A DNA stretch of 64,000 bases from a virus: IMG/VR virus record IMGVR_UViG_3300027804_000039, positions 32,001 to 96,000 of that record. One strand, given 5' to 3'. Under the pieces are notes generated by a model. It worked only from the letters and a program-made list of their open reading frames with translations, ran no database searches and was not told where the DNA came from. The position numbers and the translations under genes were made by a program. Each line of letters opens with the position of its first letter. Position 1 is the stretch's first letter. Of the stretch, positions 5,153 to 28,011 are shown piece by piece.

Positions 5153-5620
5153 TTATACGTACCAAATTTCTTTGAAGCCTTCATCTTCGGTTGGTTCTTG
5201 CCAACCGTCGATCATTTGATCCACAACGTATTGTGGAATCACCTTACCAGGACGATTAGCCAATCTGCGATCCAATTCTGCTCTGTTAGGAGTGCGGAAT
5301 ACAATAGCAATATGTTCGTATCTTGGCAAAGTATTAAACTTGCGAGCTCGACTTGCAACGGTTGTGCTAGTCTGATCCCAAATCAAATCTAAGTTATTTG
5401 CTTCACAAATCTTTGCTTGGTTAACCATTAACTTAACAGCGATTGGCATATAGTCGTCAAATACTTCAGAATAGGTCTTACCTTGTTCTTTAGCATAAGC
5501 TTCTACAAACGAATCTGTACAAACTACAGGCATGTCCTTTGCCCAATCCTGGTTAGAAACCCAAGTGCTCTTGCCTGCGGCAGGAACTCCAATTAATTGA
5601 TAACATTTTGGCATTACCAA
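5153..5620 (-). CDS. P-loop kinase, AAA_33/polynucleotide-kinase-like
   Basis: GVPAAGKST P-loop, WDQT motif, R..R lid. Confidence 0.75.
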   Translation of the reverse strand: MVMPKCYQLIGVPAAGKSTWVSNQDWAKDMPVVCTDSFVEAYAKEQGKTYSEVFDDYMPIAVKLMVNQAKICEANNLDLIWDQTSTTVASRARKFNTLPRYEHIAIVFRTPNRAELDRRLANRPGKVIPQYVVDQMIDGWQEPTEDEGFKEIWYV

Positions 5621-5805
5621 GTCTCCACACCTGAAATATCTACTCTAACTTTAGCAGGACGATCGTTGATATCCATGTCCATAGTAAGTGTCAGGATACT
5701 ACCAATGCCGCTAGAATTATCTGATTTTAGTTCGTAAGATCTAGCATCGTCGAACTCGTTCATGACTGCTAGAATCTTCTCAACTTCTTGTTTAGTAATA
5801 TACAT
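5614..5805 (-). CDS. Small hypothetical protein
   Basis: 63-aa ORF containing SSGIG motif, seen in short phage proteins. Confidence 0.65.
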   Translation of the reverse strand: MYITKQEVEKILAVMNEFDDARSYELKSDNSSGIGSILTLTMDMDINDRPAKVRVDISGVETW

Positions 5806-5909
5806 TATGCTTTCCTATTCAAAATAAAACCCTTAGAATAGATTAAGAATGCCTTACCGCTTCTAATCATTTGTTTGAAATAATATTCACGATAAGACAT
5901 TCTTGTTCC

Positions 5910-6518
5910 TTACATTGTAGGACCGTTGCCGTTCCTAAAACCCACATTACCACCTTCTGCTTCAATTCGCTTTAACACATCTTCAAATAAGATAGGTGCA
6001 AAGTCTGGTGTTTGTTCTACGCAAACGCAATGGTAGCGTGGATCAATTTCGTCACCGTATAACACTTCGCCGGTCTTAGCATCAACTCCGCGGGCCTTAC
6101 GCACTCGATTTGCGTGTAAGTGTCCGTGAATGTTAACACCAAAACGTCCTAAGCTATCTGCGTGTACAGGAATATGACTTAAGATCATTCCGTTCATAAC
6201 ATGGTATGCCCGTAATTCTCTAAAGTATTGTCTGTACTCGTCATCTCTAAAGATGTCGTGGTTACCGCGAATTAAGACCTTGTCGCCGTTTAAGCGTCTT
6301 AAAGTTCCTAACGCCTTACGGTTAATAACAACGTCACCTAAGTGGTAGACTTTATCTGTGGGCTTGACTCTTTCGTTCCAAGCCTTAACCATGGCTTCGT
6401 CCATTTCGTCCGGGTCATCCCACGGACGTAACTTTGTAAAGCCATCGCTACGTGTGAAGCGGCAAACACCTGTGTGACCAAAGTGCGTGTCGCTGACTAA
6501 AAATACACTAGGCATCAT
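5910..6518 (-). CDS. Calcineurin-like metallophosphoesterase
   Basis: SDTHFGH, HLGD, RGNHD, HGHLH motifs. Confidence 0.9.
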   Translation of the reverse strand: MMPSVFLVSDTHFGHTGVCRFTRSDGFTKLRPWDDPDEMDEAMVKAWNERVKPTDKVYHLGDVVINRKALGTLRRLNGDKVLIRGNHDIFRDDEYRQYFRELRAYHVMNGMILSHIPVHADSLGRFGVNIHGHLHANRVRKARGVDAKTGEVLYGDEIDPRYHCVCVEQTPDFAPILFEDVLKRIEAEGGNVGFRNGNGPTM

Positions 6519-6529
6519 GCCCTCCTTTC

Positions 6530-6997
6530 TTAAAAATCATTTCTAAAAGCTCGCCAATCATCTATGTTTGGCGTTTCATCTGCATCATAAGTCCAACCCA
6601 ATGCTTTCATCATACGGTGCTTGACTAGTAAGTTAGGGCTACGAAATCTTTCTGTATCTTGAAATCCCATCATAACTCCTACTTCGCAGACAGCACCGCT
6701 ACGACAAATGCCAGCAAAGCAATGAACAATAACGTCCATGTGATTGTCTAGTGCATGTTGGAGCAAACGAACAAGCTCGTTGGCTTGCTCTTGGCTGCAC
6801 TTCATTGCTTCTTCTAACACTTCGTCTTTTTCTTCTACGTCAAGAAATTCAAAACGATGTACTTCTTTGAATTGATGCTTTGGTGTTGGGAACCAACTTG
6901 CTGGGTCAGCAATTTGGATCAACATTGAATTTTCTTTTACAGCAACATGGAATCCTTTTGGAATATCATCTGCTGCACAATTTTGAATCCACGGCAT
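6530..6997 (-). CDS. Cys-based (PTP/dual-specificity-like) phosphatase
   Basis: HCFAGICRS = CX5R active-site loop. Confidence 0.8.
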   Translation of the reverse strand: MPWIQNCAADDIPKGFHVAVKENSMLIQIADPASWFPTPKHQFKEVHRFEFLDVEEKDEVLEEAMKCSQEQANELVRLLQHALDNHMDVIVHCFAGICRSGAVCEVGVMMGFQDTERFRSPNLLVKHRMMKALGWTYDADETPNIDDWRAFRNDF

Positions 6998-7642: not shown

Positions 7643-9049
7643 TTAGATATCGTAGCGTGGGACCATTACAGTCTTAAGCATGATACCTTCTGGAGTGAAT
7701 TGATCCAAATCAGCTGAAAGCAAGGCCTTCATGATGCTTGGGCTAAATCCACTTACCAGTGCCGCACCACTCTTGTCTGCCTTTACAGGCACGTTACCAG
7801 AACTGTTTAGGTTCCAGAACACAATTTGTGGAACAGTATAACCTGCATCTGCGAACTTGCGTTCAATCATTTGCATTGCTGTGTCGTCGAAACGAGCACA
7901 TTGGTTAAACTGCATGTCGCTCAAGATAAGCAACATCTTTGGCATATCGCTTTCTGGGACGTTACCCTTGACAGCAACACTAAGGATCTTGTCCATAGCC
8001 TTGTGCAAGTCGGTACTCATTTCCCAGTTACTACGTGACATTTGGTCAACCTTTTGAACGATGTTACCCTTTAGAGTAACAAGTTCTGGCTTGCTTGAGA
8101 AGGTCAAGAATGTGTCCTTGAACGCACCCTTGTTCTTGTCTGCTAGGTACAAACCTAAACCAACTGCAACGTCCAAGCAACGAACAGACGAACCTGGAAC
8201 AGGTGTGGTCATAGAACCACTTACGTCGACTAGAGGTAGGATACTTGCGTCACCTACATAGTTAGGCAGAGCGTCCCATTGTGCGATGACATGGTCGGTT
8301 TCTGTCTTGTCCAGCTTGGTGTAGCTGTGTGCGATGCCCTTAAGGACATCGTGTGGGAAGATTGCATCGGCGTTAACCTTTACAGTCTTATCCCCTGCCA
8401 CCAACTTGGCCACATACTCTGCAAATGCAGGTGTGTGACGGTTGAATGCCTTCTTGTAGTTGCGAGCAGCTACAGAAGGAACATGTGAGAAGTTAATGTT
8501 GTCCCAGTCGTTGGCACACATTTGTGTTTCAACAACTGTAGTGAGAGCAACAAGACTCTTACGATATTGCTTAGGAGTCATTCCGAAGAATGCTCGTACT
8601 TCAGCCGCAATCTTACCCTTACGTGGAGTCCACTTAGCGGCAAGACCGTTCTTCGCACGAAGGGCATCGCCCAACATGGTATAAGCGGCTGACTTTAGGA
8701 CCGGACTTTGGAAGACAAAGATATCATCCCAGCGGCCTACTTCAGGCACCTTCTTTAGCAAAGCCAAAGCGGCGTCTGGATCGCGTTGTTCTAGATGAAC
8801 TAGAATATCGCGGAACAGTTGACGTTCACCTGCACCGCCACGGACATCACGTGCCCATTGTGCAATGCGAAGTGCTACATCAGAATTCTCGACATACGCG
8901 GCAGTAAATGCCTTAGTGATGTCCTTACCACGGCTTGCGCCGATGTTGTAAAACAGGTCAACTGTAGCCTTAGCTGTTGACTTACGTGCCTTCATACCGT
9001 TTGCGGTACGGGCTTCTTGGTTTGCTACTGCTGTTACAAATGCGTTCAT
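7643..9049 (-). CDS. DUF2828-family helical-repeat + vWA protein (Ro60/TROVE-like architecture)
   Basis: RDVRGGAGER, GRWDD, AKWTPR, C-terminal vWA with MIDAS DVSGSM and ILSDMQF, IVFWNL; Ro60 relationship is inferred. Confidence 0.8.
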   Translation of the reverse strand: MNAFVTAVANQEARTANGMKARKSTAKATVDLFYNIGASRGKDITKAFTAAYVENSDVALRIAQWARDVRGGAGERQLFRDILVHLEQRDPDAALALLKKVPEVGRWDDIFVFQSPVLKSAAYTMLGDALRAKNGLAAKWTPRKGKIAAEVRAFFGMTPKQYRKSLVALTTVVETQMCANDWDNINFSHVPSVAARNYKKAFNRHTPAFAEYVAKLVAGDKTVKVNADAIFPHDVLKGIAHSYTKLDKTETDHVIAQWDALPNYVGDASILPLVDVSGSMTTPVPGSSVRCLDVAVGLGLYLADKNKGAFKDTFLTFSSKPELVTLKGNIVQKVDQMSRSNWEMSTDLHKAMDKILSVAVKGNVPESDMPKMLLILSDMQFNQCARFDDTAMQMIERKFADAGYTVPQIVFWNLNSSGNVPVKADKSGAALVSGFSPSIMKALLSADLDQFTPEGIMLKTVMVPRYDI

Positions 9050-9062
9050 GTGTGTTTCCTTT

Positions 9063-9118
9063 CAGAATGTATTTTGTTTTCGATATGCTTGAAAATTTAA
9101 GGTTGCTGTTAACATTCT
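9063..9118 (-). ncRNA. CAGCAA-stem RNA copy A (56 nt, abuts SD of DUF2828 gene)
   Basis: 5' AGAAUGU-UAA-CAGCAA...ACAUUCU-G 3'. Confidence 0.75.
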
Positions 9119-9128
9119 ATGTCTCTAG

Positions 9129-9380
9129 CAGGATGAGCGGAACGGTTTTTATTTTCTGCTTGACCCCATCCCCTGTATATCGGTTCAGTTCCTCAAGCCT
9201 ATTATGTAAGTTCTGTACATAAACATATAGGTCTTTCCCTAGTCGTTAGTTCCGTAAGCGTCTGTATTGCTACAGATAGGGCACCTTCAATGGATTTCTC
9301 CTCCAGTGTTCCAAGCCTTGCGAGCCACCGTCTACTACATTAAGTGCAGTCAGTATAGTTTAAATTGCTGAAATCATCCT
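9129..9380 (-). ncRNA. CAGCAA-stem RNA copy B (252 nt)
   Basis: 5' AGGAUGA-UUU-CAGCAA...UCAUCCU-G 3'; internal GCAA tetraloop hairpins. Confidence 0.75.
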
Positions 9381-9389
9381 AGAAATCAA

Positions 9390-9510
9390 CAGATTAGTTT
9401 TGTGCCCACTCTTTTACATGTTTGAGCTACATGTTTGATAGGCTGTGAAGTTATCTCTGCCCATCGTTTGATACGGGTATTAGCCGTGAATGATTTGCTG
9501 TAACTAATCT
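9390..9510 (-). ncRNA. CAGCAA-stem RNA copy C (121 nt)
   Basis: 5' AGAUUAG-UUA-CAGCAA...CUAAUCU-G 3'. Confidence 0.75.
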
Positions 9511-10740: not shown

Positions 10741-10815
10741 TGGTACCTGGACACGGTTTCGAACCGCGGACCTTCGCCGTGTAAAGGCGTTGCTCTACCC
10801 CTGAGCTATCCAGGC
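10741..10815 (-). tRNA. tRNA-Val(UAC)
   Basis: Cloverleaf, loop UU-UAC-AC, encoded CCA. Confidence 0.92.
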
Positions 10816-10816
10816 A

Positions 10817-11035
10817 TTATTTAATTTTTCGAATATACTCTTTTCCAATTTTGCCTTCTTCAAATTCTAGAAGTGCTGTAACTGGAGTATGTCTGTGTTC
10901 AAAACGTTCGCTTGAACTTTGTTGTCTTTTAATTTCTCTTGCACGGGCTGCGGCCATTAGTACTAGTTCAAAGCGATTGCCGCCTGCATTTTCTACGCAC
11001 AAGTCCATGTCAATATTTGCGCTACGTTCACTCAT
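10817..11035 (-). CDS. rpoZ: RNA polymerase omega subunit-like protein
   Basis: NRFELVLMAAARAREI...PVTALLEFEEGKI matches the omega core; promoter TTGACA-17-TACAAT at 11054-11082. Confidence 0.85.
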   Translation of the reverse strand: MSERSANIDMDLCVENAGGNRFELVLMAAARAREIKRQQSSSERFEHRHTPVTALLEFEEGKIGKEYIRKIK

Positions 11036-11086
11036 AGATAACTCCAAAAATAAATTGTAACATACTTATCTATAAATGTCAACATC

Positions 11087-11161
11087 TGGCCTCGCCAACA
11101 GGAATCGAACCTGTATTTAATTCTTAGGAGGAACTCGTTCTATCCATTGAACTATAGCGAG
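11087..11161 (-). tRNA. tRNA-Arg(CCU)
   Basis: Cloverleaf, loop CU-CCU-AA, CCA. Confidence 0.92.
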
Positions 11162-11166
11162 CTGTT

Positions 11167-11265
11167 TGGTGCCTCTGGCAGGACTCGAACCTGCACACTC
11201 AGGCTTATCTGGCCTGTGCTTTGGCGAGGTATAAGCTCGCTTCTTTACCATTAAGCTACAGAGGC
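11167..11265 (-). tRNA. tRNA-Ile(UAU) with 29-nt variable region
   Basis: GCGAG-CU-UAU-AC-CUCGC anticodon arm; long variable hairpin; 99 nt; CCA. Confidence 0.8.
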
Positions 11266-11270
11266 ATGAT

Positions 11271-11344
11271 TGGTTGCGGGTCCCGGAATCGAACCAGGAT
11301 CTAGAGCTTATGAGACTCTTGAGTTACCGTTTCTCTAACCCGCG
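11271..11344 (-). tRNA. tRNA-Met(CAU), initiator-like
   Basis: C1:A72 mismatch, CGCGGG start, loop CU-CAU-AA; lacks the three GC anticodon-stem pairs. Confidence 0.85.
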
Positions 11345-11352
11345 ATTGAAAT

Positions 11353-11429
<77 letters not shown>

Positions 11430-11436
11430 ATTAAAC

Positions 11437-11509
11437 TGGAGCGGGTAGTCGGATTCGAACCGGCTTCATTAGCTTGGAAGGCTAAGTCCTCTCCCAGGAG
11501 AATACCCGC
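11437..11509 (-). tRNA. tRNA-Gly(UCC)
   Basis: Loop CU-UCC-AA, U73, CCA. Confidence 0.9.
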
Positions 11510-11513
11510 ATAA

Positions 11514-11603
11514 TTTATGTAAACACACTCCGCACTTTTCGCAACGGTGGTGTGCAGTCCTTCCAACTTAGAACTATGTCTAAGCAAAGTGTGTTTACAT
11601 AAA
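11514..11603 (-). ncRNA. Unidentified structured RNA closed by a 16-bp perfect stem
   Basis: tttatgtaaacacact (11514-11529) / agtgtgtttacataaa (11588-11603). Confidence 0.45.
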
Positions 11604-11812
11604 GTGTCTAGCTACTCTCACCACAAGAGCCCTAAACTGGGTGGCCTACCCCGTCGACGTACTTTTCCATTTAGACAGGTTAGCGTCCCTGCCTTTGTGA
11701 TTTCTTAAGTCGCCCATGTAAGCGGGCCTTACGGTAGATCCAATGCACCGTGTCTTTTATGGTACAGACAATTGACCCCCGTTTACTAACGGCTACGGGA
11801 TGCCGGGTTATT

Positions 11813-11887
11813 TGGTGCTGGTTGTCGGATTTGAACTGACGACCTACTGCTTACAAGGCAGTTGCTCTACCCCTGAGCTAAACCAGC
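11813..11887 (-). tRNA. tRNA-Thr(UGU)
   Basis: Loop CU-UGU-AA, CCA. Confidence 0.92.
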
Positions 11888-11893
11888 GTAAAA

Positions 11894-12052
11894 TTATTTA
11901 ACTCTAGACTCAAGTGTTCTAATACGATTTAGAATTTTACCCTTGTCTTTAGCACGACTAGTTTTTTCTAACATATCTTTCAACTGCGTAATGCTCAATG
12001 GTCCTAAACGTGTTTTACCTGTTTTAGTTTTCATTGGATCTGCGTGTGACAT
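11894..12052 (-). CDS. Small basic hypothetical protein (52 aa, not in ORF track)
   Basis: MSHADPMKTKTGKTRLGPL...; SD GAGGA. Confidence 0.65.
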   Translation of the reverse strand: MSHADPMKTKTGKTRLGPLSITQLKDMLEKTSRAKDKGKILNRIRTLESRVK

Positions 12053-12069
12053 AATTTCCTCTTTTTGTT

Positions 12070-12145
12070 TGGTGGAGGTAAACGGGATCGAACCGATGAC
12101 CTTTAGCTTGCAAAGCTACTGCTCTCCCAGCTGAGCTATACCCCC
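12070..12145 (-). tRNA. tRNA-Ala(UGC)
   Basis: G3:U70, loop UU-UGC-AA. Confidence 0.93.
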
Positions 12146-12147
12146 AA

Positions 12148-12333
12148 TTAATCTGTTGTATCACCTTCTCCGTCCAAATCATAATATTCGTTTTTCATTA
12201 TAACTTGTTCGTCGAATTTCTCTGCGTCTGTCTTTTTATCTTTTTTAAAGATGTTATCGTAGTTATCACGATATGCATTAGTAACGCCTTTCGTTTGAAT
12301 TGCATCTCCTGTGATATCATTTTTTGCTACCAT
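12148..12333 (-). CDS. Small hypothetical protein (61 aa)
   Basis: MVAKNDITGD...YRDNYDNIF; SD GGAG. Confidence 0.7.
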   Translation of the reverse strand: MVAKNDITGDAIQTKGVTNAYRDNYDNIFKKDKKTDAEKFDEQVIMKNEYYDLDGEGDTTD

Positions 12334-12351
12334 CTTACTTCTCCGAATAAT

Positions 12352-12428
12352 TGGCTCCCCGAGCTGGGCTCGAACCAGCGACACCTTGATTAACAGTCAA
12401 GTGCTTCTACCAACTGAGCTATCAGGGA
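12352..12428 (-). tRNA. tRNA-Asn(GUU)
   Basis: Loop CU-GUU-AA, G73. Confidence 0.9.
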
Positions 12429-12439
12429 ACAGAAATTAT

Positions 12440-12628
12440 TTATTCACTGGTAGGAGTACCAGTTGTAAATCGTTCTTTCTTACTTGTCTTGGGAACAATG
12501 CTTGCAGAATGTTCTGCTTCGATGAACATTCTCTTCCAACCATTTCTATATTCATTAGTTCCACCCATTAGAGCAATCATGCGTTTTGCAGTCTTACTCA
12601 GTCTAAATGATGCAGTAGTCTTTGCCAT
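12440..12628 (-). CDS. Small basic hypothetical protein
   Basis: MAKTTASFRLSKTAKR..., SD AAGGA. Confidence 0.7.
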   Translation of the reverse strand: MAKTTASFRLSKTAKRMIALMGGTNEYRNGWKRMFIEAEHSASIVPKTSKKERFTTGTPTSE

Positions 12629-12645
12629 ACTTTTTCCTTTTAAAT

Positions 12646-12740
12646 TGGCAGTGAGTAAGGGATTCGAACCCTTGATCCCCGTTTTTGCAGGAATGCCTTC
12701 TTAGCAGGAAGGTGCCTTCGACCAGCTCGGCCAACTCACT
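12646..12740 (-). tRNA. tRNA-Ser(GCU)
   Basis: Long variable arm, loop CU-GCU-AA. Confidence 0.92.
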
Positions 12741-12747
12741 ATTATTC

Positions 12748-12832
12748 TGGTACGACTGGCCGGAATCGAACCGGCACGCCTTTCGGCGAGAGATTTTAAG
12801 TCTCTTGTGTCTACCTATTTCACCACAGTCGC
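12748..12832 (-). tRNA. tRNA-Leu(UAA)
   Basis: Long variable arm with GAAA loop, loop CU-UAA-AA. Confidence 0.93.
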
Positions 12833-12840
12833 ATTACAAA

Positions 12841-13041
12841 TTAAATTCTACGCTTCTTCCAGTCGTATGTAAAGCCGTTTGGCAATACACCTTCTACAAT
12901 TTCGTCAGCACCAAAGATGCCAACTAGCTCAAACTCTTTGCTCTTAATAGTTACATACTCATTCATTACTTTGGCTGTTTTCATAGCCTCGTCTAGAGTC
13001 ATAACATTAAAAGTTATATCTTTTCCTTTTACTTCATACAT
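12841..13041 (-). CDS. Small hypothetical protein
   Basis: MYEVKGKD...GVLPNGFTYDWKKRRI. Confidence 0.65.
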   Translation of the reverse strand: MYEVKGKDITFNVMTLDEAMKTAKVMNEYVTIKSKEFELVGIFGADEIVEGVLPNGFTYDWKKRRI

Positions 13042-13092
13042 ATTGTCGATTTCCTTTTCTTTTCCACACATCGCGACAACGACATTATTGAT

Positions 13093-13166
13093 TGGCATCC
13101 CGCCAGGGACTCGAACCCCGACCAACAGTTTTGGAGACTGGTATGCTGCCATTACACTAGCGAGAT
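13093..13166 (-). tRNA. tRNA-Trp(CCA)
   Basis: Loop CU-CCA-AA. Confidence 0.9.
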
Positions 13167-13173
13167 ATAAACT

Positions 13174-13250
13174 TGGCGACCTGTACCGGGCTCGAACCGG
13201 TGACCCCCGCCGTGACAGGGCGGTGCGCTGACCAACTGCGCTAACAGGCC
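13174..13250 (-). tRNA. tRNA-Asp(GUC)
   Basis: Loop CU-GUC-AC, G73. Confidence 0.93.
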
Positions 13251-13255
13251 AATAT

Positions 13256-13347
13256 TGGTGGAAGCGGTGAGATTCGAACTCACGGACCCTGTTAAGGATC
13301 GTCGGTTTTCAAGACCGGTGCAATAAACCAGACTCTGCCACACTTCC
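13256..13347 (-). tRNA. tRNA-Ser(UGA)
   Basis: Long variable arm, loop CU-UGA-AA. Confidence 0.92.
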
Positions 13348-13352
13348 ATTAT

Positions 13353-13435
13353 TGGTGCCCCAGGACGGACTCGAACCGTCACGCTCGCGCACTGGCTTCT
13401 AAGACCAGCGTGTCTACCAATTTCACCACCGGGGC
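13353..13435 (-). tRNA. tRNA-Leu(UAG)
   Basis: Loop CU-UAG-AA, variable arm. Confidence 0.92.
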
Positions 13436-13442
13436 ATAATTT

Positions 13443-13585
13443 CCATTTAGTAATAGCACAGTTTACTATTCTCACTCTACCCAATGTTGCTCTGCTACGC
13501 AGAAACAATTACTAGTATCATGGGCCCCGATTTGAACAAGGTTAGCCGTGTACATTGGCCTACGAGCTGTGCTATTACTAAATGG
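13443..13585 (-). ncRNA. Unidentified 143-nt RNA closed by a 19-bp perfect stem
   Basis: ccatttagtaatagcacag (13443-13461) / ctgtgctattactaaatgg (13567-13585); 5' end overlaps the CCA of tRNA-Glu. Confidence 0.5.
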
Positions 13586-13658
13586 TACTCGATAGGGGAA
13601 TCGAACCCCTCTTCCCACCGTGAAAGGGTGGTGTCCTAGACCGATAGACGAATCGAGC
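13583..13658 (-). tRNA. tRNA-Glu(UUC)
   Basis: Loop CU-UUC-AC. Confidence 0.92.
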
Positions 13659-13719
13659 AAATTAACTTTTGAATTTTTAACGAACGATTTTAGTCAGTTG
13701 TTTATCTAACTAAGTCTCT

Positions 13720-13748
13720 ATTATATAGCCTCTGCACACTCTTGTCAA
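13720..13748 (-). promoter_or_regulatory. Internal sigma70 promoter in tRNA array
   Basis: TTGACA-17-TATAAT. Confidence 0.85.
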
Positions 13749-13768
13749 TAATAAAGTGGCATTTTGGT

Positions 13769-13843
13769 TGGCCGGGCTTGCAGGAATCGAACCCACACCG
13801 CTTGTTTCGAAGACAAGCATGATATCCATTTCACCAAAGCCCG
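13769..13843 (-). tRNA. tRNA-Arg(UCG)
   Basis: Loop CU-UCG-AA. Confidence 0.88.
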
Positions 13844-13855
13844 AACGTATATTTA

Positions 13856-13930
13856 TGGCACCGCGAGTTGGACTCGAACCAACATCTTACGCTTTAGAAG
13901 AGCGTTGCCTATCCTTTAGACTATCGCGGT
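13856..13930 (-). tRNA. tRNA-Arg(UCU)
   Basis: Loop CU-UCU-AA. Confidence 0.92.
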
Positions 13931-13931
13931 A

Positions 13932-14008
13932 TGGTGCTCTTGAAGAGATTCGAACTCTTACTGTCAGCGACCTCAACGCTGTGCGTCTACCAATTGCGCC
14001 ACAAGAGC
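13932..14008 (-). tRNA. tRNA-Leu(GAG) with short variable loop
   Basis: CAGCG-UU-GAG-GU-CGCUG; Leu-type D arm; only ~5 nt variable region. Confidence 0.8.
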
Positions 14009-14009
14009 A

Positions 14010-14083
14010 TGGTGCTCTAGCCAAGAATCGAACTTGAAATACATTCTTACCAAGAATGCGTTATGCCATTTAACTACAAGAGC
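14010..14083 (-). tRNA. tRNA-Thr(GGU)
   Basis: Loop UU-GGU-AA. Confidence 0.9.
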
Positions 14084-14091
14084 AAATAAAT

Positions 14092-14193
14092 CGGGATGAG
14101 GTGCCTAAGACCGGGACTCGAACCCACGGCACACCCCCAAGCGGGCCGGCCTCGCGAGAATGGAGCGAGTAAGTTGTTTGCTGTAATCATCCC
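14092..14193 (-). ncRNA. CAGCAA-stem RNA copy D with T-loop-like hairpin
   Basis: GGGAUGA-UUA-CAGCAA...GGG-UUCGAGU-CCC...UCAUCCC-G. Confidence 0.75.
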
Positions 14194-14198
14194 TAAAC

Positions 14199-14318
14199 TG
14201 GTGGAGCCCCGTGGATTCGAACCACGATCACGTCCTTATGCATGGAATTTGTAAATTGCTGACTGTATCCTTGTCAGGATAACCTTTTTTACGTATGCTA
14301 CCATTACACCAGAGCTCC
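14199..14318 (-). ncRNA. tRNA-shaped RNA with the CAGCAA module in place of the anticodon loop (copy E)
   Basis: Acceptor GGAGCUC/GGGCUCC-ACCA, normal D and T arms; anticodon region holds UUAUCCU-GACA-AGGAUAC-AGU-CAGCAA. Confidence 0.8.
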
Positions 14319-14327
14319 AAAATAAAA

Positions 14328-14443
14328 CAGGATAGAATTTAACATAGTGCTACCGTTACACCAAACCTTTCGGCTGCGGAGTCGAACCGCTCCCTTACTT
14401 TTCAAGAGTAGTAGTTGTTATTAAATTTTGCTGTTACTATCCT
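14328..14443 (-). ncRNA. CAGCAA-stem RNA copy F, circularly permuted tRNA mimic
   Basis: AGGAUAG-UAA-CAGCAA; T arm GCGG-UUCGACU-CCGC; acceptor AGCC-GAAA-GGUU; D arm GUGUAACGGUAGCAC; CUAUCCU-G. Confidence 0.8.
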
Positions 14444-14448
14444 TAAAC

Positions 14449-14530
14449 TGGTACCCCTCCCCGGACTCGAACCGGGAGAAACTAACACTCCTTTTGAGAG
14501 AGCTGCCTTTACCAATTTGGCCAGAGGGGC
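14449..14530 (-). tRNA. tRNA-Leu(CAA)
   Basis: Loop CU-CAA-AA. Confidence 0.88.
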
Positions 14531-14540
14531 ATAAACTTGT

Positions 14541-14615
14541 TGGTAGTTCCTACTGGGATCGAACCAGTGACCCACACCATGTCAAGGTGTTGCGCTACCG
14601 CTACGCTAAGGAACT
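14541..14615 (-). tRNA. tRNA-Val(GAC)
   Basis: Loop UU-GAC-AU. Confidence 0.9.
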
Positions 14616-14793
14616 ATTGTTTGAACTTTTCTTTGACACGTTCTAATGCCTCTTTACGCATTAAATAAGAACGCTGTTCATTTATTTTATGAACATAGAT
14701 GTATTCGACACCGTCGATTATCTCAACTCTACGAGTGTCTTCACATATAAATTTATCGTTGTTCATGCGATTTTTAAATGTTACAGGTTTCAT
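14614..14793 (-). CDS. Small hypothetical protein (59 aa, not in ORF track)
   Basis: MKPVTFKNRMNNDKFICED...; SD AAGGAGAG. Confidence 0.65.
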   Translation of the reverse strand: MKPVTFKNRMNNDKFICEDTRRVEIIDGVEYIYVHKINEQRSYLMRKEALERVKEKFKQ

Positions 14794-14813
14794 AACACTC
14801 TCCTTGAATAAAA

Positions 14814-14927
14814 CGGGATACTATCGTTTTGACGAATGCTCTACCTAATGAGCTAAACTGGCATGAAGCCAACTGTTGGACTCGAACCAACTACCTATCG
14901 TTTGGATAGATTTGCTGTGAGTATCCC
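14814..14927 (-). ncRNA. CAGCAA-stem RNA copy G, circularly permuted tRNA mimic
   Basis: GGGAUAC-UCA-CAGCAA; T arm GUUGG-UUCGAGU-CCAAC; acceptor AGUUGGC-UUCAU-GCCAGUU; D arm GCUCAUUAGGUAGAGC; GUAUCCC-G. Confidence 0.82.
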
Positions 14928-14933
14928 TAAACT

Positions 14934-15008
14934 TGGAGCAGGATATCGGGTTCGAACCGATGACATTCTCGTTGGCAACGAGACATTCTACCACTGAATT
15001 AATCCTGC
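14934..15008 (-). tRNA. tRNA-Gly(GCC)
   Basis: Loop UU-GCC-AA, U73. Confidence 0.92.
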
Positions 15009-15009
15009 A

Positions 15010-15259
15010 TTGTCTAAAGAAAAAGAGCTCACAAAGTTTTGGTTTGCCGAAGCTGAGGCGACCTGATGTTACCGCACCACTTTATTTGTCTCGCCTAACA
15101 TGGAGCGATTCAATCTGTCAACGGACTCGCGCAGTACCACTATCCGCACATGTTCAGATCAGTTGTGATTTTTATAAAACCTTTAAGCCAGCCCTTCCGG
15201 AGCCATCTATCGTCCTTGCGGAACAACTATATCGCCTTGAGCACTTTTACTTTAGACAA
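15010..15259 (-). ncRNA. Unidentified ~250-nt structured RNA
   Basis: 10-bp closing stem ttgtctaaag/ctttagacaa; GCAA, GGAA and UUCG tetraloop hairpins on minus strand. Confidence 0.55.
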
Positions 15260-15319
15260 TTTATTTATAAATGCCAGGTTGTTCACCGCACAACCATGGC
15301 AAAGCGGGGGTCTGTTCTT

Positions 15320-15395
15320 TGGGGTGCTCTATGAGGATCGAACTCATACTCTCAAGGTCACAACATGATGTGCAGTCCACTACACTAAGAGCACC
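15320..15395 (-). tRNA. tRNA-His(GUG)
   Basis: G-1:C73, loop UU-GUG-AC, U-U mismatch in anticodon stem. Confidence 0.88.
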
Positions 15396-15402
15396 ATAGA
15401 AT

Positions 15403-15478
15403 TGGTAGTAACGGTCGGACTCGAACCGACGATAAACACCGTATGAAGGTGGTGCATTAGCCACTATGCTACGTTACC
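15403..15478 (-). tRNA. tRNA(CAU), elongator Met or Ile2
   Basis: Loop UU-CAU-AC; identity not resolvable by eye. Confidence 0.85.
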
Positions 15479-15483
15479 ATAAA

Positions 15484-15700
15484 GGATGACAACTAGATTC
15501 TTCCACCACATACATTGGAAGCATTATCCGCAAATTATGCCGGCTGCGGTTATGATAGTCAAGCTCTTTTACAGATAACTTGTTTTCTCTTAGGGTACAT
15601 AAGTAATAGTGCTACTTGTTTGCTACTAGGATAATTAGTCCCAACTCACAAGAATTTCGAGGCTCTTGCTTTCACACATCTCACACCTAATTGTCATTCG
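15484..15700 (-). ncRNA. Unidentified ~215-nt structured RNA
   Basis: Closing stem GAAUGACAA/UUGUCAUCC, several internal hairpins, no ORF. Confidence 0.4.
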
Positions 15701-15703
15701 TTA

Positions 15704-15778
15704 TGGTAGGGGCACAGAGAATCGAACTCTGATTAATAGGTTAAAAGCCTACTACTTTAGCCGTTAAGTTATACCCCC
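15704..15778 (-). tRNA. tRNA-Lys(UUU)
   Basis: Loop CU-UUU-AA. Confidence 0.92.
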
Positions 15779-15781
15779 ATA

Positions 15782-15857
15782 TGGTCCCTCCAGACGGATT
15801 CGAACCGTCACCTCATCGGGTAAGAGCCGAGTATGCTACCAGTAACACCTCGAAGGG
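15782..15857 (-). tRNA. tRNA-Lys(CUU)
   Basis: Loop CU-CUU-AC. Confidence 0.88.
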
Positions 15858-15917
15858 ATGATCCGTAATCATTTGATTTTACGTGCCATCCGGACCATAC
15901 GGGGATCGCGGATGACA

Positions 15918-15941
15918 CTAACGTTTACCTGAACGTTTCAT
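15918..15941 (-). other. Minigene MKRSGKR-UAG followed by a 10-bp hairpin
   Basis: AAGGAG-6nt-AUG; hairpin GUGUCAUCCG/CGGAUGGCAC; promoter TTGACA-17-TATAAT at 15963-15991. Confidence 0.45.
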
Positions 15942-16059
15942 GTCATTCTCCTTAAAAAACAAATTATATATTCATTTCAAATTCTTGTCAATGAACATAA
16001 TCAGTACTACGAGTAAAAGTAAAACAGCCACCGCCCCATGATTGTTCTCCTTAAAAAAA

Positions 16060-16122
16060 CAGGATGTATTTTTACGGTTTAGATTAAAAGTCTAATGTAT
16101 AAATTTTTGCTGTTAACATCCT
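16060..16122 (-). ncRNA. CAGCAA-stem RNA copy H carrying a Lys(UUU)-like anticodon stem-loop
   Basis: AGGAUGU-UAA-CAGCAA...UUAGA-CUUUUAA-UCUAA...ACAUCCU-G. Confidence 0.78.
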
Positions 16123-16128
16123 TAAACT

Positions 16129-16204
16129 TGGTGCCGCCTCGTGGGATCGAACCACGTTCCGACGCTCTTCAGGCGCCTGCTATGACCACATCAGCTAAAG
16201 CGGC
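16129..16204 (-). tRNA. tRNA-Phe(GAA)
   Basis: Loop CU-GAA-GA. Confidence 0.9.
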
Positions 16205-16365
16205 AAATAGATTGGGTGCCTAACTATCCTCCTGGGAAGACTCGCTAGATTGTCTCGAATAGTCAAGTTTAACATACCGGCTTCAGTCATACTGTAGTGT
16301 CACCACAGTTAACCCCACTGTGGCTAGACTGGCAGGGACTCTAAACTATCGTCTATCCCAAAACT

Positions 16366-16440
16366 TGGTGCTCCGTGACGGACTCGAACCGCCATCGCCG
16401 GACTACAAAACCGGAATTCTAGCCTTTGAAATAACAGAGC
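16366..16440 (-). tRNA. Atypical tRNA, probably Thr(UGU) second copy
   Basis: CCGGU-UU-UGU-AG-UCCGG with U31:U39 mismatch. Confidence 0.65.
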
Positions 16441-16445
16441 AAAAT

Positions 16446-16523
16446 TGGTCTCCATGGTAGGATTCGAACCTACAGCCTCCTGACTCCAGATCAGGCCGTC
16501 TACCAGATTGACATTACACAGAG
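16446..16523 (-). tRNA. tRNA-Pro(UGG) second copy, non-canonical loop
   Basis: CCUGA-UC-UGG-AG-UCAGG (C33, A37). Confidence 0.8.
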
Positions 16524-16529
16524 ATAACT

Positions 16530-16604
16530 TGGTGGAGACCGAGGGAATCGAACCCTTCTAGACATCTTCCTTGCAAGGGAAGACCGTAGCCCACTACTGC
16601 CCCC
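16530..16604 (-). tRNA. Atypical tRNA-Ala(UGC) with miniature D arm
   Basis: G3:U70, D arm GUAG-UGGG-CUAC, loop CU-UGC-AA. Confidence 0.7.
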
Positions 16605-16614
16605 AAATTCTTTT

Positions 16615-16692
16615 TGGCACCCCAGGAAGGACTCGAACCTCCGACTCCCACGTTCGTAGCGTAGTACTCTTATTCCTCTGAGTTACTGGGGT
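16615..16692 (-). tRNA. tRNA-Arg(ACG)
   Basis: Loop CU-ACG-AA. Confidence 0.92.
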
Positions 16693-16698
16693 ATAAAT

Positions 16699-16776
16699 TG
16701 GAGTAGGGAGTCGGATTCGAACCGACGGCTTTAGAGTTTTGCAGACTCTTGCATTGGGCCTCTCTGCCATCCCTAC
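16699..16776 (-). tRNA. tRNA-Cys(GCA)
   Basis: Loop CU-GCA-AA, U73. Confidence 0.92.
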
Positions 16777-16783
16777 ATAATAT

Positions 16784-16858
16784 TGGCGCCGTAGACGAGA
16801 ATCGAACTCGCCTTAGTCGGATAGACAATCCGTTGCCCTCCCAGAGAACTACTACGGC
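16784..16858 (-). tRNA. tRNA-Asp(GUC) second copy, U37
   Basis: Loop UU-GUC-UA, G73. Confidence 0.78.
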
Positions 16859-16862
16859 ATGT

Positions 16863-16936
16863 TGGTATCGCGTACGGGGATCGAACCCGCCTGATCAGGT
16901 TGAAAGCCTGAGGACCTCCCAGAAGTCTAACGCGAT
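16863..16936 (-). tRNA. tRNA-Glu(UUC) second copy
   Basis: Loop CU-UUC-AA. Confidence 0.88.
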
Positions 16937-16945
16937 ATAAAAAAA

Positions 16946-17005
16946 CAGGATACATTTTCTTTTTTCACCAATTGAAAGTTGAATAAAGTTTGCTGTGAGT
17001 ATCCT
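16946..17005 (-). ncRNA. CAGCAA-stem RNA copy I carrying a Glu(UUC)-like anticodon stem-loop
   Basis: AGGAUAC-UCA-CAGCAA...UCAA-CUUUCAA-UUGG...GUAUCCU-G. Confidence 0.78.
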
Positions 17006-17011
17006 TAAACT

Positions 17012-17085
17012 TGGCAGGGGCATTAGGGATCGAACCTAAACTAACAGAGTCAAAGTCTGTTGTGCTACCATTACACAATGCCCCA
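17012..17085 (-). tRNA. tRNA-Gln(UUG)
   Basis: Loop CU-UUG-AC, U1-A72. Confidence 0.92.
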
Positions 17086-17091
17086 ACAAAT

Positions 17092-17169
17092 TGGCTGTGC
17101 GTCTAGGAATCGAACCCAGCTCATTCTTCGTTAACAGCGAAGCGCCTACACCTTGCTTGCTCACGCACA
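17092..17169 (-). tRNA. tRNA-Asn(GUU) second copy
   Basis: Loop CU-GUU-AA. Confidence 0.88.
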
Positions 17170-17176
17170 ATAAATT

Positions 17177-17250
17177 TGGTTCCCAGAACAAGAATCGAAC
17201 TTGTAATGACCGGTTATCAGCCGATTGTTATACCATTTAACTATCCGGGA
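17177..17250 (-). tRNA. tRNA-Ile(GAU)
   Basis: Loop CU-GAU-AA. Confidence 0.92.
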
Positions 17251-17255
17251 ATAAT

Positions 17256-17344
17256 TGGTGGAGCCTGAAGGAATCGAACCTAATTGCCAACCACCCTACA
17301 TATTAAGGCAACGGATTTACAGTCCGCCGTAGGGATCAAGCTCC
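17256..17344 (-). tRNA. Rearranged tRNA-Tyr(GUA) lacking a local D hairpin
   Basis: Acceptor GGAGCUU/AGGCUCC-ACCA, GCGGA-CUGUAAA-UCCGU, D region CCCUAC complementary to GUAGGG in the variable loop. Confidence 0.7.
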
Positions 17345-17557
17345 AAAATTTTCACACACTCTTTAGAATGTGTCGTATAAAATAAGCTAGTTCATCCCGT
17401 CAAGGGGGAAACGTTATACGATTCCTAACTTGCTTTATACGCTACCTTTTTACACATTCTAGTTATCGCCTAGAACTTACCATCCGGTAGGCCGCCCACA
17501 TTAAGCCGATGTTTTAAGTGCCAGCAGGGTCGCGTTCCCTATACACACTTTTTGCGA

Positions 17558-26840: not shown

Positions 26841-26916
26841 TGGTGCGCTGAGTGGGAATCGAACCCACGCATCTGGAGTTTTAGAGGCTCCCGCTGTTCC
26901 ATTTAGCTATCAGCGC
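26841..26916 (-). tRNA. Amber-suppressor-type tRNA (CUA anticodon)
   Basis: GCGCUGA/UCAGCGC-ACCA; GGAGC-CU-CUA-AA-ACUCC; own promoter TTGACG-17-TATAAT at 26925-26953. Confidence 0.82.
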
Positions 26917-27428: not shown

Positions 27429-27546
27429 ACTAAATTTTTCCTTATGTGTTTCACTGTGTGTGATGTCTTTCTATATATCTACGAAAAACACACAGCTTAG
27501 AGTATTATATATTCACGTAAACCATGAGAGCAAATTTTTTTACTCC

Positions 27547-27574
27547 AAAAAAATAGCACCCGAAGGTGCTATTT
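27547..27574 (-). terminator. Terminator after tmRNA
   Basis: aaatagcacc-cgaa-ggtgctattt plus U-tract. Confidence 0.8.
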
Positions 27575-27925
27575 GTTATTTTGGGTGACAAGGTATAACT
27601 ACCCCGGTTCCGCTGTTTCTTAGGCAGCTAAAGCAAACTTGCTGTCGTTGACAGCTACGTCTACTTCGTAGAACTTAAATGCTGATTTTGCATTTATAAG
27701 TTTTGCTTGATTTACGGTCATCGCCTACCGTGTTGCCGTCTCTACTATCTACCCCTGTCGAAACCATGGCAGGCCCATCATAAAATGACTAGGAAAACTA
27801 TAGCAACTGCGATAAATCCAACTAGTGTACTATATCCAGTGTCCATACTAATCTCCTTATGGTGGACCTGGCGGGAGTCGAACCCGCGTCCAGAAGTCCT
27901 TCGCTTTGAAGGGATTACAACAATT
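27575..27925 (-). ncRNA. ssrA: Two-piece (circularly permuted) tmRNA
   Basis: Acceptor piece ends GCGGGUUCGACUCCCGC-CAGGUCC-ACCA (27860); coding piece starts GGGCCUG (27776), giving G3:U70; tag ORF 27620-27691 AKSAFKFYEVDVAVNDSKFALAA. Confidence 0.92.
27778..27846 (-). CDS. 22-aa hydrophobic peptide inside the tmRNA intervening segment
   Basis: UAAGGAG SD; MDTGYSTLVGFIAVAIVFLVIL. Confidence 0.6.
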   Translation of the reverse strand: MDTGYSTLVGFIAVAIVFLVIL

Positions 27926-27927
27926 CT

Positions 27928-28011
27928 TTACTTACTATTGCGTCTTCTAGTAGCTTTAGCTCTAGAAGCTGCTTTCGTACGTGCCGCACGGGCTCTTACT
28001 AATCTTCCCAT
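27928..28011 (-). CDS. 27-aa Arg/Ala-rich basic peptide
   Basis: MGRLVRARAARTKAASRAKATRRRNSK. Confidence 0.5.
   Translation of the reverse strand: MGRLVRARAARTKAASRAKATRRRNSK

What the first reader, a model, noticed from the sequence alone, without database searches (positions are those of the whole stretch)
16060..17005. CAGCAA RNAs display isolated anticodon stem-loops of Lys(UUU), Glu(UUC) and Ser(UGA): nuclease decoys?
Seen: copy H has UUAGA-CUUUUAA-UCUAA, with the same 7-nt loop as the phage tRNA-Lys(UUU). Copy I has UCAA-CUUUCAA-UUGG, with the same loop as the adjacent tRNA-Glu(UUC). Copy F has UACU-CUUGAAA-AGUA, with the same loop as tRNA-Ser(UGA). Established: PrrC cleaves tRNA-Lys(UUU) and several anticodon nucleases target U34 tRNAs. 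Inference: these are scaffolded anticodon decoys or sensors presented by a Ro-like carrier.
Basis: partly seen in the sequence, partly recalled or inferred. Interest (0 to 1): 0.7.

Follow-up and report, generated by a model that had tools for sequence, protein, structure and literature searches.

The report
Anticodon-arm mimics on phage Y-like RNAs
A giant freshwater phage encodes small RNAs inside its tRNA gene cluster that join a handle, probably bound by a Ro60-shaped phage protein, to a copy of a tRNA anticodon arm; related phages keep the arm's frame but keep changing its "anticodon" letters, which points to a role in the fight over tRNA-cutting host defences, though no experiment shows this yet.

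Summary
All three hairpins exist as written, and their 7-nt loops equal those of the phage's tRNA-Lys(UUU), tRNA-Glu(UUC) and tRNA-Ser(UGA).

- **Chance:** it does not explain this. Shuffles expect 0.036 tRNA-identical loops against 3 observed (0 of 2000 reach 3).
- **Copy H:** a solid isolated anticodon-arm mimic. In 36 distinct relatives its three helices covary. C32, U33, U36, A37 and A38 are fixed, while positions 34 and 35 are the most variable letters.
- **Copy F:** its arm also covaries, but it is one arm of a complete, circularly permuted tRNA-like domain, so it is not isolated.
- **Copy I:** not supported. The fold is disfavoured and the loop is absent from most relatives.
- **Carrier:** the neighbouring DUF2828 protein models with a Ro60 fold. 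Kinase and phosphoesterase genes of the RNA end-healing kind follow it.
- **Published support:** a preprint shows that the E. coli phage Bas63 homologue counters the Ppl defence.
- **Function:** the nuclease-decoy reading fits the context but is untested, and I rate it about 0.4.
- **Status:** the RNA family reaches no Rfam threshold and I found no description of it in the papers searched. This scan had already noted the same kind of element on other DNA, including an identical H-type copy.

The parts
16061..16122 (-). Copy H: short handle RNA. It has a 7-bp closing stem, a UAACAGCAA bulge, a second helix and an apical anticodon-arm mimic. A GUUUUUUU tail runs to about 16053.
16079..16095 (-). 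H anticodon-arm mimic UUAGA-CUUUUAA-UCUAA (loop 16084-16090).
   Evidence: Pair probabilities 0.89-0.98. Three of five pairs covary in 36 relatives. The loop equals that of tRNA-Lys(UUU).
16947..17005 (-). Copy I: short handle RNA between tRNA-Gln and tRNA-Glu. The proposed Glu-type hairpin (16968-16982) is not supported.
14329..14443 (-). Copy F: handle plus a circularly permuted tRNA-like domain. The order is anticodon arm 14396-14410, T arm, GAAA-capped acceptor helix, D arm.
14815..14927 (-). Copy G: handle plus a tRNA-like domain. It gives a weak Rfam YrlA match and its first hairpin has a CAAAC loop.
14093..14193 (-). Copy E: handle plus a domain that contains a T arm.
14197..14320 (-). 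Copy D: a tRNA-shaped RNA whose anticodon arm is replaced by a CAGCAA module.
9064..9510 (-). Copies A (9391-9510), B (9130-9380) and C (9064-9118), in tandem directly upstream of the Ro60-like gene.
7643..9049 (-). Ro60-fold protein P0001 (DUF2828 + DUF7788/vWA), the presumed carrier.
5153..6997 (-). Three genes downstream of the carrier gene: DSP-type phosphatase (6530-6997), metallophosphoesterase (5910-6518) and AAA_33/PNK-like kinase (5153-5620).
   Evidence: A kinase and a metallophosphoesterase also follow the homologue in phage DLP_6.
15704..15778 (-). tRNA-Lys(UUU), loop CUUUUAA.
16863..16936 (-). tRNA-Glu(UUC), loop CUUUCAA.
13256..13347 (-). tRNA-Ser(UGA), loop CUUGAAA.
15963..15991 (-). 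Perfect sigma-70-type promoter match just downstream of H. H therefore sits at the end of the upstream tRNA transcription unit.

Best explanation
H, F and their many relatives are Y-RNA-like partner RNAs of the phage's Ro60-fold protein. A shared handle (7-bp closing stem, UAACAGCAA bulge, U-rich tail) is the presumed protein-binding module.

The cargo is a tRNA anticodon arm, either alone (H type) or inside a permuted tRNA body (F type). It keeps the loop frame C32-U33 and N36-A37-A38 and lets positions 34 and 35 change.

I think the arm most likely acts as bait for proteins that read anticodon loops, above all host anticodon nucleases used in phage defence. The particle would then compete with real tRNAs, or capture the nuclease or its products, while the phage's own tRNA array, tmRNA and end-healing enzymes keep translation running.

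Shown here: the RNA architecture, its conservation, the Ro60 fold of the protein and the gene neighbourhood. Inferred: that the protein binds the handle, that the RNAs accumulate as separate molecules, and the decoy action itself.
For: - Loops identical to phage tRNA loops, far above chance.
- 45 of 86 short and 22 of 57 tRNA-like relatives carry a CU-NNN-AA hairpin, against 0.8 and 0.7 in shuffles.
- H-type alignment of 36 distinct sequences: 92.7% of cells paired against about 40% with slid partners, and 8 pairs with changes on both sides.
- In that alignment C32 and U33 are each kept in 35 of 36 sequences, and U36, A37 and A38 in all 36. Position 35 is the most variable unpaired column at 1.6 bits.
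- Near-identical backbones carry UUU, UGU, UCU or GAU, and the same array slot (Phe, then H, then Lys(CUU)) holds UUU or UGU.
- F-type arm: 100% paired, with 3 of 4 pairs covarying. The rival minimum-energy helix is no better than shuffles.
- P0001 model has pLDDT 92.9, and its 13 best PDB matches are all Ro60 (E 3.5e-8 to 9e-6, TM up to 0.67). The MIDAS residues D275, S277 and S279 are invariant.
- Phosphatase, metallophosphoesterase and PNK-like kinase genes follow the carrier gene.
- Bas63 gp130 is 38% identical to P0001. A preprint reports that it counters the Ppl defence (PMC11482910).
- Hughes et al. 2020 raise the idea that YrlA's tRNA-like domain is a competitive inhibitor of an anticodon nuclease (PMC7790460).
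Against: - No nuclease, binding or cleavage was tested.
- The host is unknown.
- Change at positions 34 and 35 could be neutral drift at exposed loop tips rather than selection.
- Fixed U36-A37-A38 (H type) and A36-A37-A38 (F type) also fit recognition by tRNA modification enzymes (from memory: the t6A and i6A determinants).
- Copy I lacks a conserved arm.
- The handle RNAs of Felixounavirus phages Alf5 and Bas63 have 7-nt loops without U33 (CACGAAA, UAGCGGA, CCGGUAA), so faithful anticodon mimicry is not universal in the wider family.
- Bas63 gp130 protected T7 when moved alone, without its RNAs (PMC11482910).
- No RNA ligase was found in the 191-kb fragment, which is only about half of the genome.
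Confidence: 0.4

Rival explanations
1. Adaptor rather than decoy. The anticodon arm recruits tRNA-handling enzymes to the Ro-like particle. These could be the neighbouring kinase and phosphoesterases, a ligase, or modification enzymes that read positions 36-38. The particle would then work as a platform for repair or quality control of cut tRNAs.
For: - Positions 36-38 are fixed and 34-35 are free. That is the pattern expected for enzymes that read N36-A37-A38 (from memory).
- End-healing-type genes lie next to the carrier gene here and in DLP_6.
- YrlA is a substrate of tRNA modification enzymes (PMC4201824).
- Ro/TROVE with a tRNA-like partner has been described as an RNA repair platform in jumbo phages (PMC7824862).
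Against: No ligase was found in the fragment. Nothing shows that the neighbouring enzymes act on RNA. This reading does not explain why the triplet changes between near-identical copies.
Confidence: 0.25
2. A Ro/Y-RNA/exonuclease machine of the known kind (RYPER-like). The RNA tethers or gates the Ro-like ring and a host exonuclease such as PNPase. The apical hairpin would only be a stable cap inherited from a tRNA ancestor, and its loop letters would have no specific reader.
For: The protein has a Ro60 fold. The Thermus phage Ro60 with its Y-like RNAs forms a complex with host PNPase (PMC12135203). The short copies upstream of the carrier gene mostly lack an anticodon-like loop (4 of 55).
Against: Five of the seven loop letters are fixed across 36 distinct H-type sequences while the stems covary. 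The format is enriched about 50-fold over shuffles. A mere cap would not need C32-U33 and U36-A37-A38.
Confidence: 0.15
3. Punctuation of the tRNA operons. The elements would be terminators, processing signals or decaying tRNA remnants, with no role as separate RNAs.
For: - H ends in a run of seven U and is followed by a perfect promoter match.
- The elements start 5-6 nt after a tRNA 3' end and often stop about 10 nt before the next tRNA.
- The arrays are heavily rearranged.
Against: - The invariant UAACAGCAA bulge and three covarying helices are not needed for termination.
- Copy I has the same U-rich tail in mid-operon, directly before eight more tRNA genes.
- The same handle sits directly upstream of the carrier gene in the window and in relatives' loci.
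- The terminator scan calls none of them.
Confidence: 0.08

Closest known systems
YrlA / bacterial and phage Y RNAs with Ro60 (Rsr) (Rfam RF02553; Chen et al. 2014, PMC4201824)
   Same: Small RNAs closed by a long stem and encoded near a Ro60-fold protein, with an effector part that imitates tRNA. F, G and E have T and D arms in the permuted order typical of YrlA. G gives a weak YrlA match.
   Different: - The handle differs (7-bp stem plus ACAGCAA bulge).
- No copy reaches the Rfam threshold (best 27.3 bits against 69).
- The protein is DUF2828, not Pfam TROVE.
- YrlA has no anticodon arm, because the Ro-binding stem takes its place. Here a canonical anticodon arm is displayed, and in H it is the only cargo.
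Phage-encoded tRNAs that defeat tRNA-targeting defences (van den Berg et al. 2023, PMC10264068; Burman et al. 2024, PMC11464382)
   Same: Phage RNAs in tRNA arrays whose anticodon loops matter in the conflict with host anticodon nucleases. The window's array also holds duplicate tRNAs with unusual loops.
   Different: Those are complete, decoding tRNAs that replace cut host tRNAs. H has no acceptor end, T arm or D arm and cannot decode. Its 'anticodon' is the least conserved part rather than the most conserved.
Bas63 gp130, a Ro60-like counter-defence protein of an E. coli Felixounavirus (preprint PMC11482910)
   Same: Homologue of P0001 (38% identity, E 2e-98), also directly beside a tRNA array. 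That array contains four unannotated handle RNAs.
   Different: Its reported target, Ppl, is not known to cut tRNA. The protein worked in T7 without its RNAs. The Bas63 hairpin loops lack U33.

Membership tests
YrlA (Rfam RF02553) | Covariance-model score at or above the gathering score of 69 bits | tested here: not met
   H, I and F give no match. G scores 27.3 bits, E 0.0067.
YrlA (Rfam RF02553) | tRNA-like domain with a T arm and a D arm | tested here: not met
   H and I have neither. F, G and E do have them.
Y RNA in the broad sense (Ro60 partner RNA) | Encoded next to a Ro60-type protein and closed by a conserved stem that carries the binding site | tested here: met
   Copies A-C directly precede the Ro60-fold gene, and H and I lie 7-8 kb away on the same strand. 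The closing stem covaries and the bulge is invariant.
Y RNA in the broad sense (Ro60 partner RNA) | Physically bound by the Ro60-type protein | not testable with these tools
   Needs a gel-shift assay or co-purification.
tRNA (Rfam RF00005 / ARAGORN) | Cloverleaf with an acceptor stem and CCA end | tested here: not met
   Neither ARAGORN nor Rfam calls H, I or F.
Anticodon stem-loop (structural motif) | 5-bp stem, 7-nt loop, U33, purine 37, kept across relatives | tested here: met
   - H: 5 bp, with C32 and U33 each in 35 of 36 sequences and U36, A37, A38 in 36 of 36.
- F: the same loop frame, but a 4-bp stem.
- I: inconclusive to negative.
Ro60 / TROVE protein (for the carrier P0001) | Pfam TROVE domain (PF05731) | tested here: not met
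   No match in the genome. Pfam gives DUF2828 + DUF7788. phmmer against PDB finds no Ro60.
Ro60 / TROVE protein (for the carrier P0001) | Helical-repeat ring plus a vWA domain with a MIDAS motif, by fold | tested here: met
   Model pLDDT 92.9 and pTM 0.91. The top 13 PDB matches are all Ro60. D275, S277, S279, T346 and D378 are invariant in 90 homologues.
Anticodon-nuclease decoy (functional class) | Binds or inhibits an anticodon nuclease, or is cut in place of tRNA | not testable with these tools
   Needs cleavage and competition assays.

The most novel reading that the evidence does not exclude
The phages carry an evolvable panel of anticodon-arm baits. The handle loads each bait onto a Ro60-like ring. 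The two free loop letters (positions 34 and 35) set which tRNA-reading enzyme is caught. Rapid switching of these letters between near-identical copies would then record an arms race with host anticodon nucleases. That would be an RNA-based counter-defence whose specificity can be read from sequence.
Probability: 0.25. Interest if true: 0.85.

Novelty: new variant of a known kind. Interest (0 to 1): 0.7.

Why it matters
Ro60 and Y RNAs have been known for decades, yet it is still open what the tRNA-like part of bacterial Y RNAs is for.

These phage RNAs reduce the mimic to a bare anticodon arm. The fixed and the free letters show which part of the arm is under constraint. That narrows the search to proteins that read anticodon loops.

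The carrier family is widespread: tblastn finds it in 711 of 50,697 phage records. One member already has a counter-defence phenotype in an E. coli phage that carries the same handle RNAs, so the question can be tested at the bench.

If the baits do block anticodon nucleases, this would be a new class of RNA-based anti-defence. It would also help explain what some unannotated spacers in phage tRNA arrays encode.

Tried and rejected
- **Rfam.** At gathering and at E-value thresholds it gave nothing for H, I or F beyond chance-level hits. One example is a Dictyostelium class I RNA match at 24 bits on I.
- **Protein families in the genome.** Pfam TROVE, RtcB, Rnl2-type and T4 Rnl1-type RNA ligase were not found in the 191-kb fragment. 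The fragment is about half a genome and the Rnl1 control rang nowhere, so this says little.
- **Sequence search of P0001 against PDB.** phmmer found no Ro60. The fold search was needed.
- **My strict finder** (exact CAGCAA plus a perfect 7-bp stem) on Vibrio phage nt-1, Cronobacter phage S13, Stenotrophomonas phage DLP_6 and Synechococcus phage BUCT-ZZ01. It gave few or doubtful elements. I make no claim about anticodon mimicry in those phages.
- **Copy I as a Glu arm.** Rejected on ensemble probability and lack of conservation.
- **The minimum-energy alternative helix in F.** Rejected because it does not beat shuffles.
- **Terminator scan.** It calls none of the elements.
- **Metatranscriptome contigs from four freshwater runs.** They cover I without a mismatch (one 172-nt contig, 16856-17027), and one run covers H. 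Contigs cannot show strand, ends or transcription, and DNA carry-over is possible, so I do not count this as expression evidence.
- **A guessed accession for Bas63** was wrong. The right one came from the paper.

Full report
**Setting**

The window is part of a 191-kb IMG/VR virus record, estimated to be about half of a jumbo phage genome. rIIA and rIIB genes point to a T4-like relative. On the minus strand lie 37 tRNA genes (10741-17250), a suppressor-like tRNA(CUA) and a permuted tmRNA.

Nine elements on the same strand share one design. Each has a 7-bp closing stem, two or three bases, an invariant CAGCAA, a variable insert, the other strand of the stem and a U-rich tail. Three of them (A-C) stand directly before the gene at 7643-9049. 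The other six sit inside the tRNA array, most of them starting within a few bases of a tRNA 3' end.

**The observation**

Their loops are letter for letter those of the window's tRNA-Lys(UUU), of the tRNA-Glu(UUC) at 16863-16936, and of tRNA-Ser(UGA). 21 of the window's 38 tRNAs have the same C-U-NNN-A-A loop frame.

- Shuffling the inserts of the nine elements gives 0.036 tRNA-identical loops on average, against 3 observed. None of 2000 shuffles reaches 3.
- In the rest of the genome, 0.5% of hairpins with a 4-bp stem and a 7-nt loop have this frame. The share is 10% in the nine elements and 12% in tRNA genes.

**Relatives**

The gene at 7643-9049 has relatives on 427 viral contigs, and I read the 80 closest loci. 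A pattern scan added about 110 more stretches. A simple finder gave 287 distinct elements of the family.

| Element class | With a CU-NNN-AA hairpin | Shuffle mean (highest 3 in every class) |
|---|---|---|
| Short array-type | 45 of 86 | 0.8 |
| tRNA-like, 81-135 nt | 22 of 57 | 0.7 |
| Short, next to the protein gene | 4 of 55 | 0.4 |

(All.)

**Copy H**

36 distinct H-type sequences align well.

- The three helices I wrote down are paired in 92.7% of cells, against 32-42% when partners are slid.
- 8 pairs change on both sides.
- The anticodon-like stem shows up to four pair types at one position.
- The bulge UAACAGCAA is nearly invariant.
- In the loop, C32 and U33 are each kept in 35 of 36 sequences, and U36, A37 and A38 in all 36.
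- Position 35 is the most variable unpaired column (1.6 bits) and position 34 also varies.

The triplets seen are UUU (18), UCU (7), UGU (5), GCU (2), GAU (2), CUU (1) and AUU (1).

Among pairs of sequences that differ at one to three places, position 35 is the place that differs most often (11 of 24 pairs). One group of seven near-identical backbones carries UUU, UGU, UCU and GAU. The same array slot (tRNA-Phe, element, tRNA-Lys(CUU)) holds UUU in two phages and UGU in two others.

So the arm is selected as an arm, and its "anticodon" is the part that moves. In real tRNAs it is the reverse.

**Copy F**

F is not an isolated arm. Reading along the RNA, the parts come in this order:

1. the handle
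2. the anticodon-like hairpin
3. a five-base linker
4. a T arm
5. a short helix capped by GAAA, in the place of the acceptor stem
6. the bases UG
7. a D arm
8. the handle again

That is a tRNA opened between the D arm and the anticodon arm. In 13 relatives the hairpin is paired in every cell and 3 of its 4 pairs covary. The helix that energy minimisation prefers is no better than shuffles. The loop is CU-UGA-AA, CU-GUA-AA or CU-GAA-AA. Again positions 34 and 35 move and A36-A37-A38 stay.

**Copy I**

The proposed hairpin has pair probabilities of 0.01-0.03, and the best fold that contains it is 2.1 kcal/mol worse than the minimum. In 16 aligned relatives CUUUCAA occurs in four close sequences only. 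The others have a U-run followed by UGGU in that place. The pair count is not above shuffles (71 of 500 as high). I do not accept I as a Glu mimic.

**The carrier**

P0001 matches Pfam DUF2828 and DUF7788 but not TROVE, and phmmer finds no solved relative. A model built on 90 homologues has pLDDT 92.9 and pTM 0.91. Its 13 best matches in the PDB are all Ro60. They include the Thermus phage, Xenopus, human and Deinococcus proteins, at E 3.5e-8 to 9e-6 and TM up to 0.67 over the full length. After them come only isolated vWA domains. The MIDAS residues are invariant.

Downstream on the same strand lie a DSP-type phosphatase, a metallophosphoesterase and a P-loop kinase with a weak polynucleotide-kinase match. 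A kinase and a metallophosphoesterase also follow the homologue in Stenotrophomonas phage DLP_6. These are the enzyme types that heal the ends left by anticodon nucleases. Their substrate here is not shown.

**What is known**

- Chen et al. 2014 describe YrlA as a tRNA mimic with T and D arms in which the Ro-binding stem takes the place of the anticodon arm. Only Deinococcus Yrn1 has a possible arm, with a 6-nt loop (PMC4201824).
- Hughes et al. 2020 show that damaged tRNAs induce the rsr-yrlBA-rtcBA operon. They suggest, without a test, that YrlA's tRNA-like domain might competitively inhibit the anticodon nuclease (PMC7790460).
- A Listeria phage study found three very abundant RNAs just upstream of its Rsr-like gene and guessed that they might be Y RNAs (PMC12282133).
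- A preprint on phage Bas63 found that its Ro60-like gp130 counters the Ppl defence, and that it also does so when moved alone into T7. The authors remarked that some "tRNA genes" next to it may be Y RNAs (PMC11482910).

I confirmed that gp130 is a homologue of P0001 (38% identity, E 2e-98). I also found four unannotated handle RNAs in the Bas63 array. Their 7-nt loops lack U33, as do those in phage Alf5.

I found no description of the handle family, or of Y-like RNAs that display a bare anticodon arm, in Rfam or in the papers searched.

Earlier reports of this scan had already noted the same family on other DNA. One covers an identical H-type element in another genome, and two cover phages with "anticodon arm" cargoes.

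**Mechanism**

I commit to this reading. The handle loads the RNA on the Ro60-like ring, and the arm is bait for proteins that read anticodon loops, most likely host anticodon nucleases.

For it:
- the setting in a tRNA array that also holds duplicate tRNAs with odd loops
- the tmRNA
- the end-healing-type genes
- the counter-defence phenotype of a homologue
- the moving triplet on a fixed frame

Against it:
- no assay exists
- the frame positions 36-38 are also what tRNA modification enzymes read (from memory)
- the Felixounavirus loops are poor mimics
- gp130 worked without its RNAs against Ppl

I put the decoy reading at 0.4, an adaptor for repair or modification enzymes at 0.25, a PNPase-type machine with an incidental cap at 0.15, and mere operon punctuation at 0.08.

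**Limits**

My finder needs an exact CAGCAA and a perfect stem, so it undercounts. The related sequences share ancestry, so counts of sequences are not counts of events. Expression is not shown for this phage. The host is unknown.

Noticed in passing
window 16129-17250 versus 10741-15857 (minus strand): The array holds duplicate tRNAs for Thr(UGU), Pro(UGG), Ala(UGC), Asp(GUC), Glu(UUC), Asn(GUU) and Met(CAU). Several second copies have unusual anticodon loops: Pro UCUGGAG with C33, Asp UUGUCUA with U37, and Thr UUUGUAG. This recalls phage tRNAs that escape nucleases through loop changes (PMC10264068).
   Followed up: partly
window 17256-17345 (minus strand): A tRNA-like gene that ARAGORN misses and that gives only a weak Rfam tRNA-Sec match. 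It has a 7-bp acceptor stem with CCA, a T arm, a long extra arm and an anticodon arm with loop CUGUAAA (Tyr GUA). It has no normal D arm.
   Followed up: partly
window 11170-11265 (minus strand): Rfam calls a 96-nt tRNA (59.7 bits) that ARAGORN does not list. By eye it has loop CUUAUAC (Ile UAU) and an insert of about 30 nt in the variable region.
   Followed up: no
window 15479-15703 (minus strand): This 225-nt spacer between tRNA-Met and tRNA-Lys(UUU) matches no Rfam family. It lies in contigs of very high depth (about 200) in one freshwater metatranscriptome run. It may be another structured RNA. Other long unexplained spacers are 11510-11812, 13436-13582, 15009-15319, 16205-16365 and 17346-17557.
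   Followed up: no
window 15858-16050 (minus strand): Between H and tRNA-Lys(CUU) there are two tiny reading frames with strong ribosome-binding sites (about 10 and 7 codons). They lie on either side of a perfect TTGACA-17-TATAAT promoter match.
   Followed up: no
window 26841-26916 (minus strand): A tRNA with anticodon CUA, which ARAGORN calls 'Pyl', so an amber-suppressor-type tRNA. It lies close to the permuted tmRNA at 27529-27952.
   Followed up: no
L007:2335-2451, L039:3288-3404, L093:6658-6775 and similar: A second topology of handle RNA in relatives: hairpin, T arm, acceptor-like helix, D arm, then a 5-bp anticodon arm with loops such as UUUCAAG, UUCCAAG or UUAAACA. These are tRNA bodies opened in the variable region rather than before the anticodon arm.
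   Followed up: no
L201:27783-27906 (phage Bas63): One of the four handle RNAs of Bas63 overlaps an annotated hypothetical gene (bas63_0137) on the opposite strand. That gene call may be spurious.
   Followed up: no
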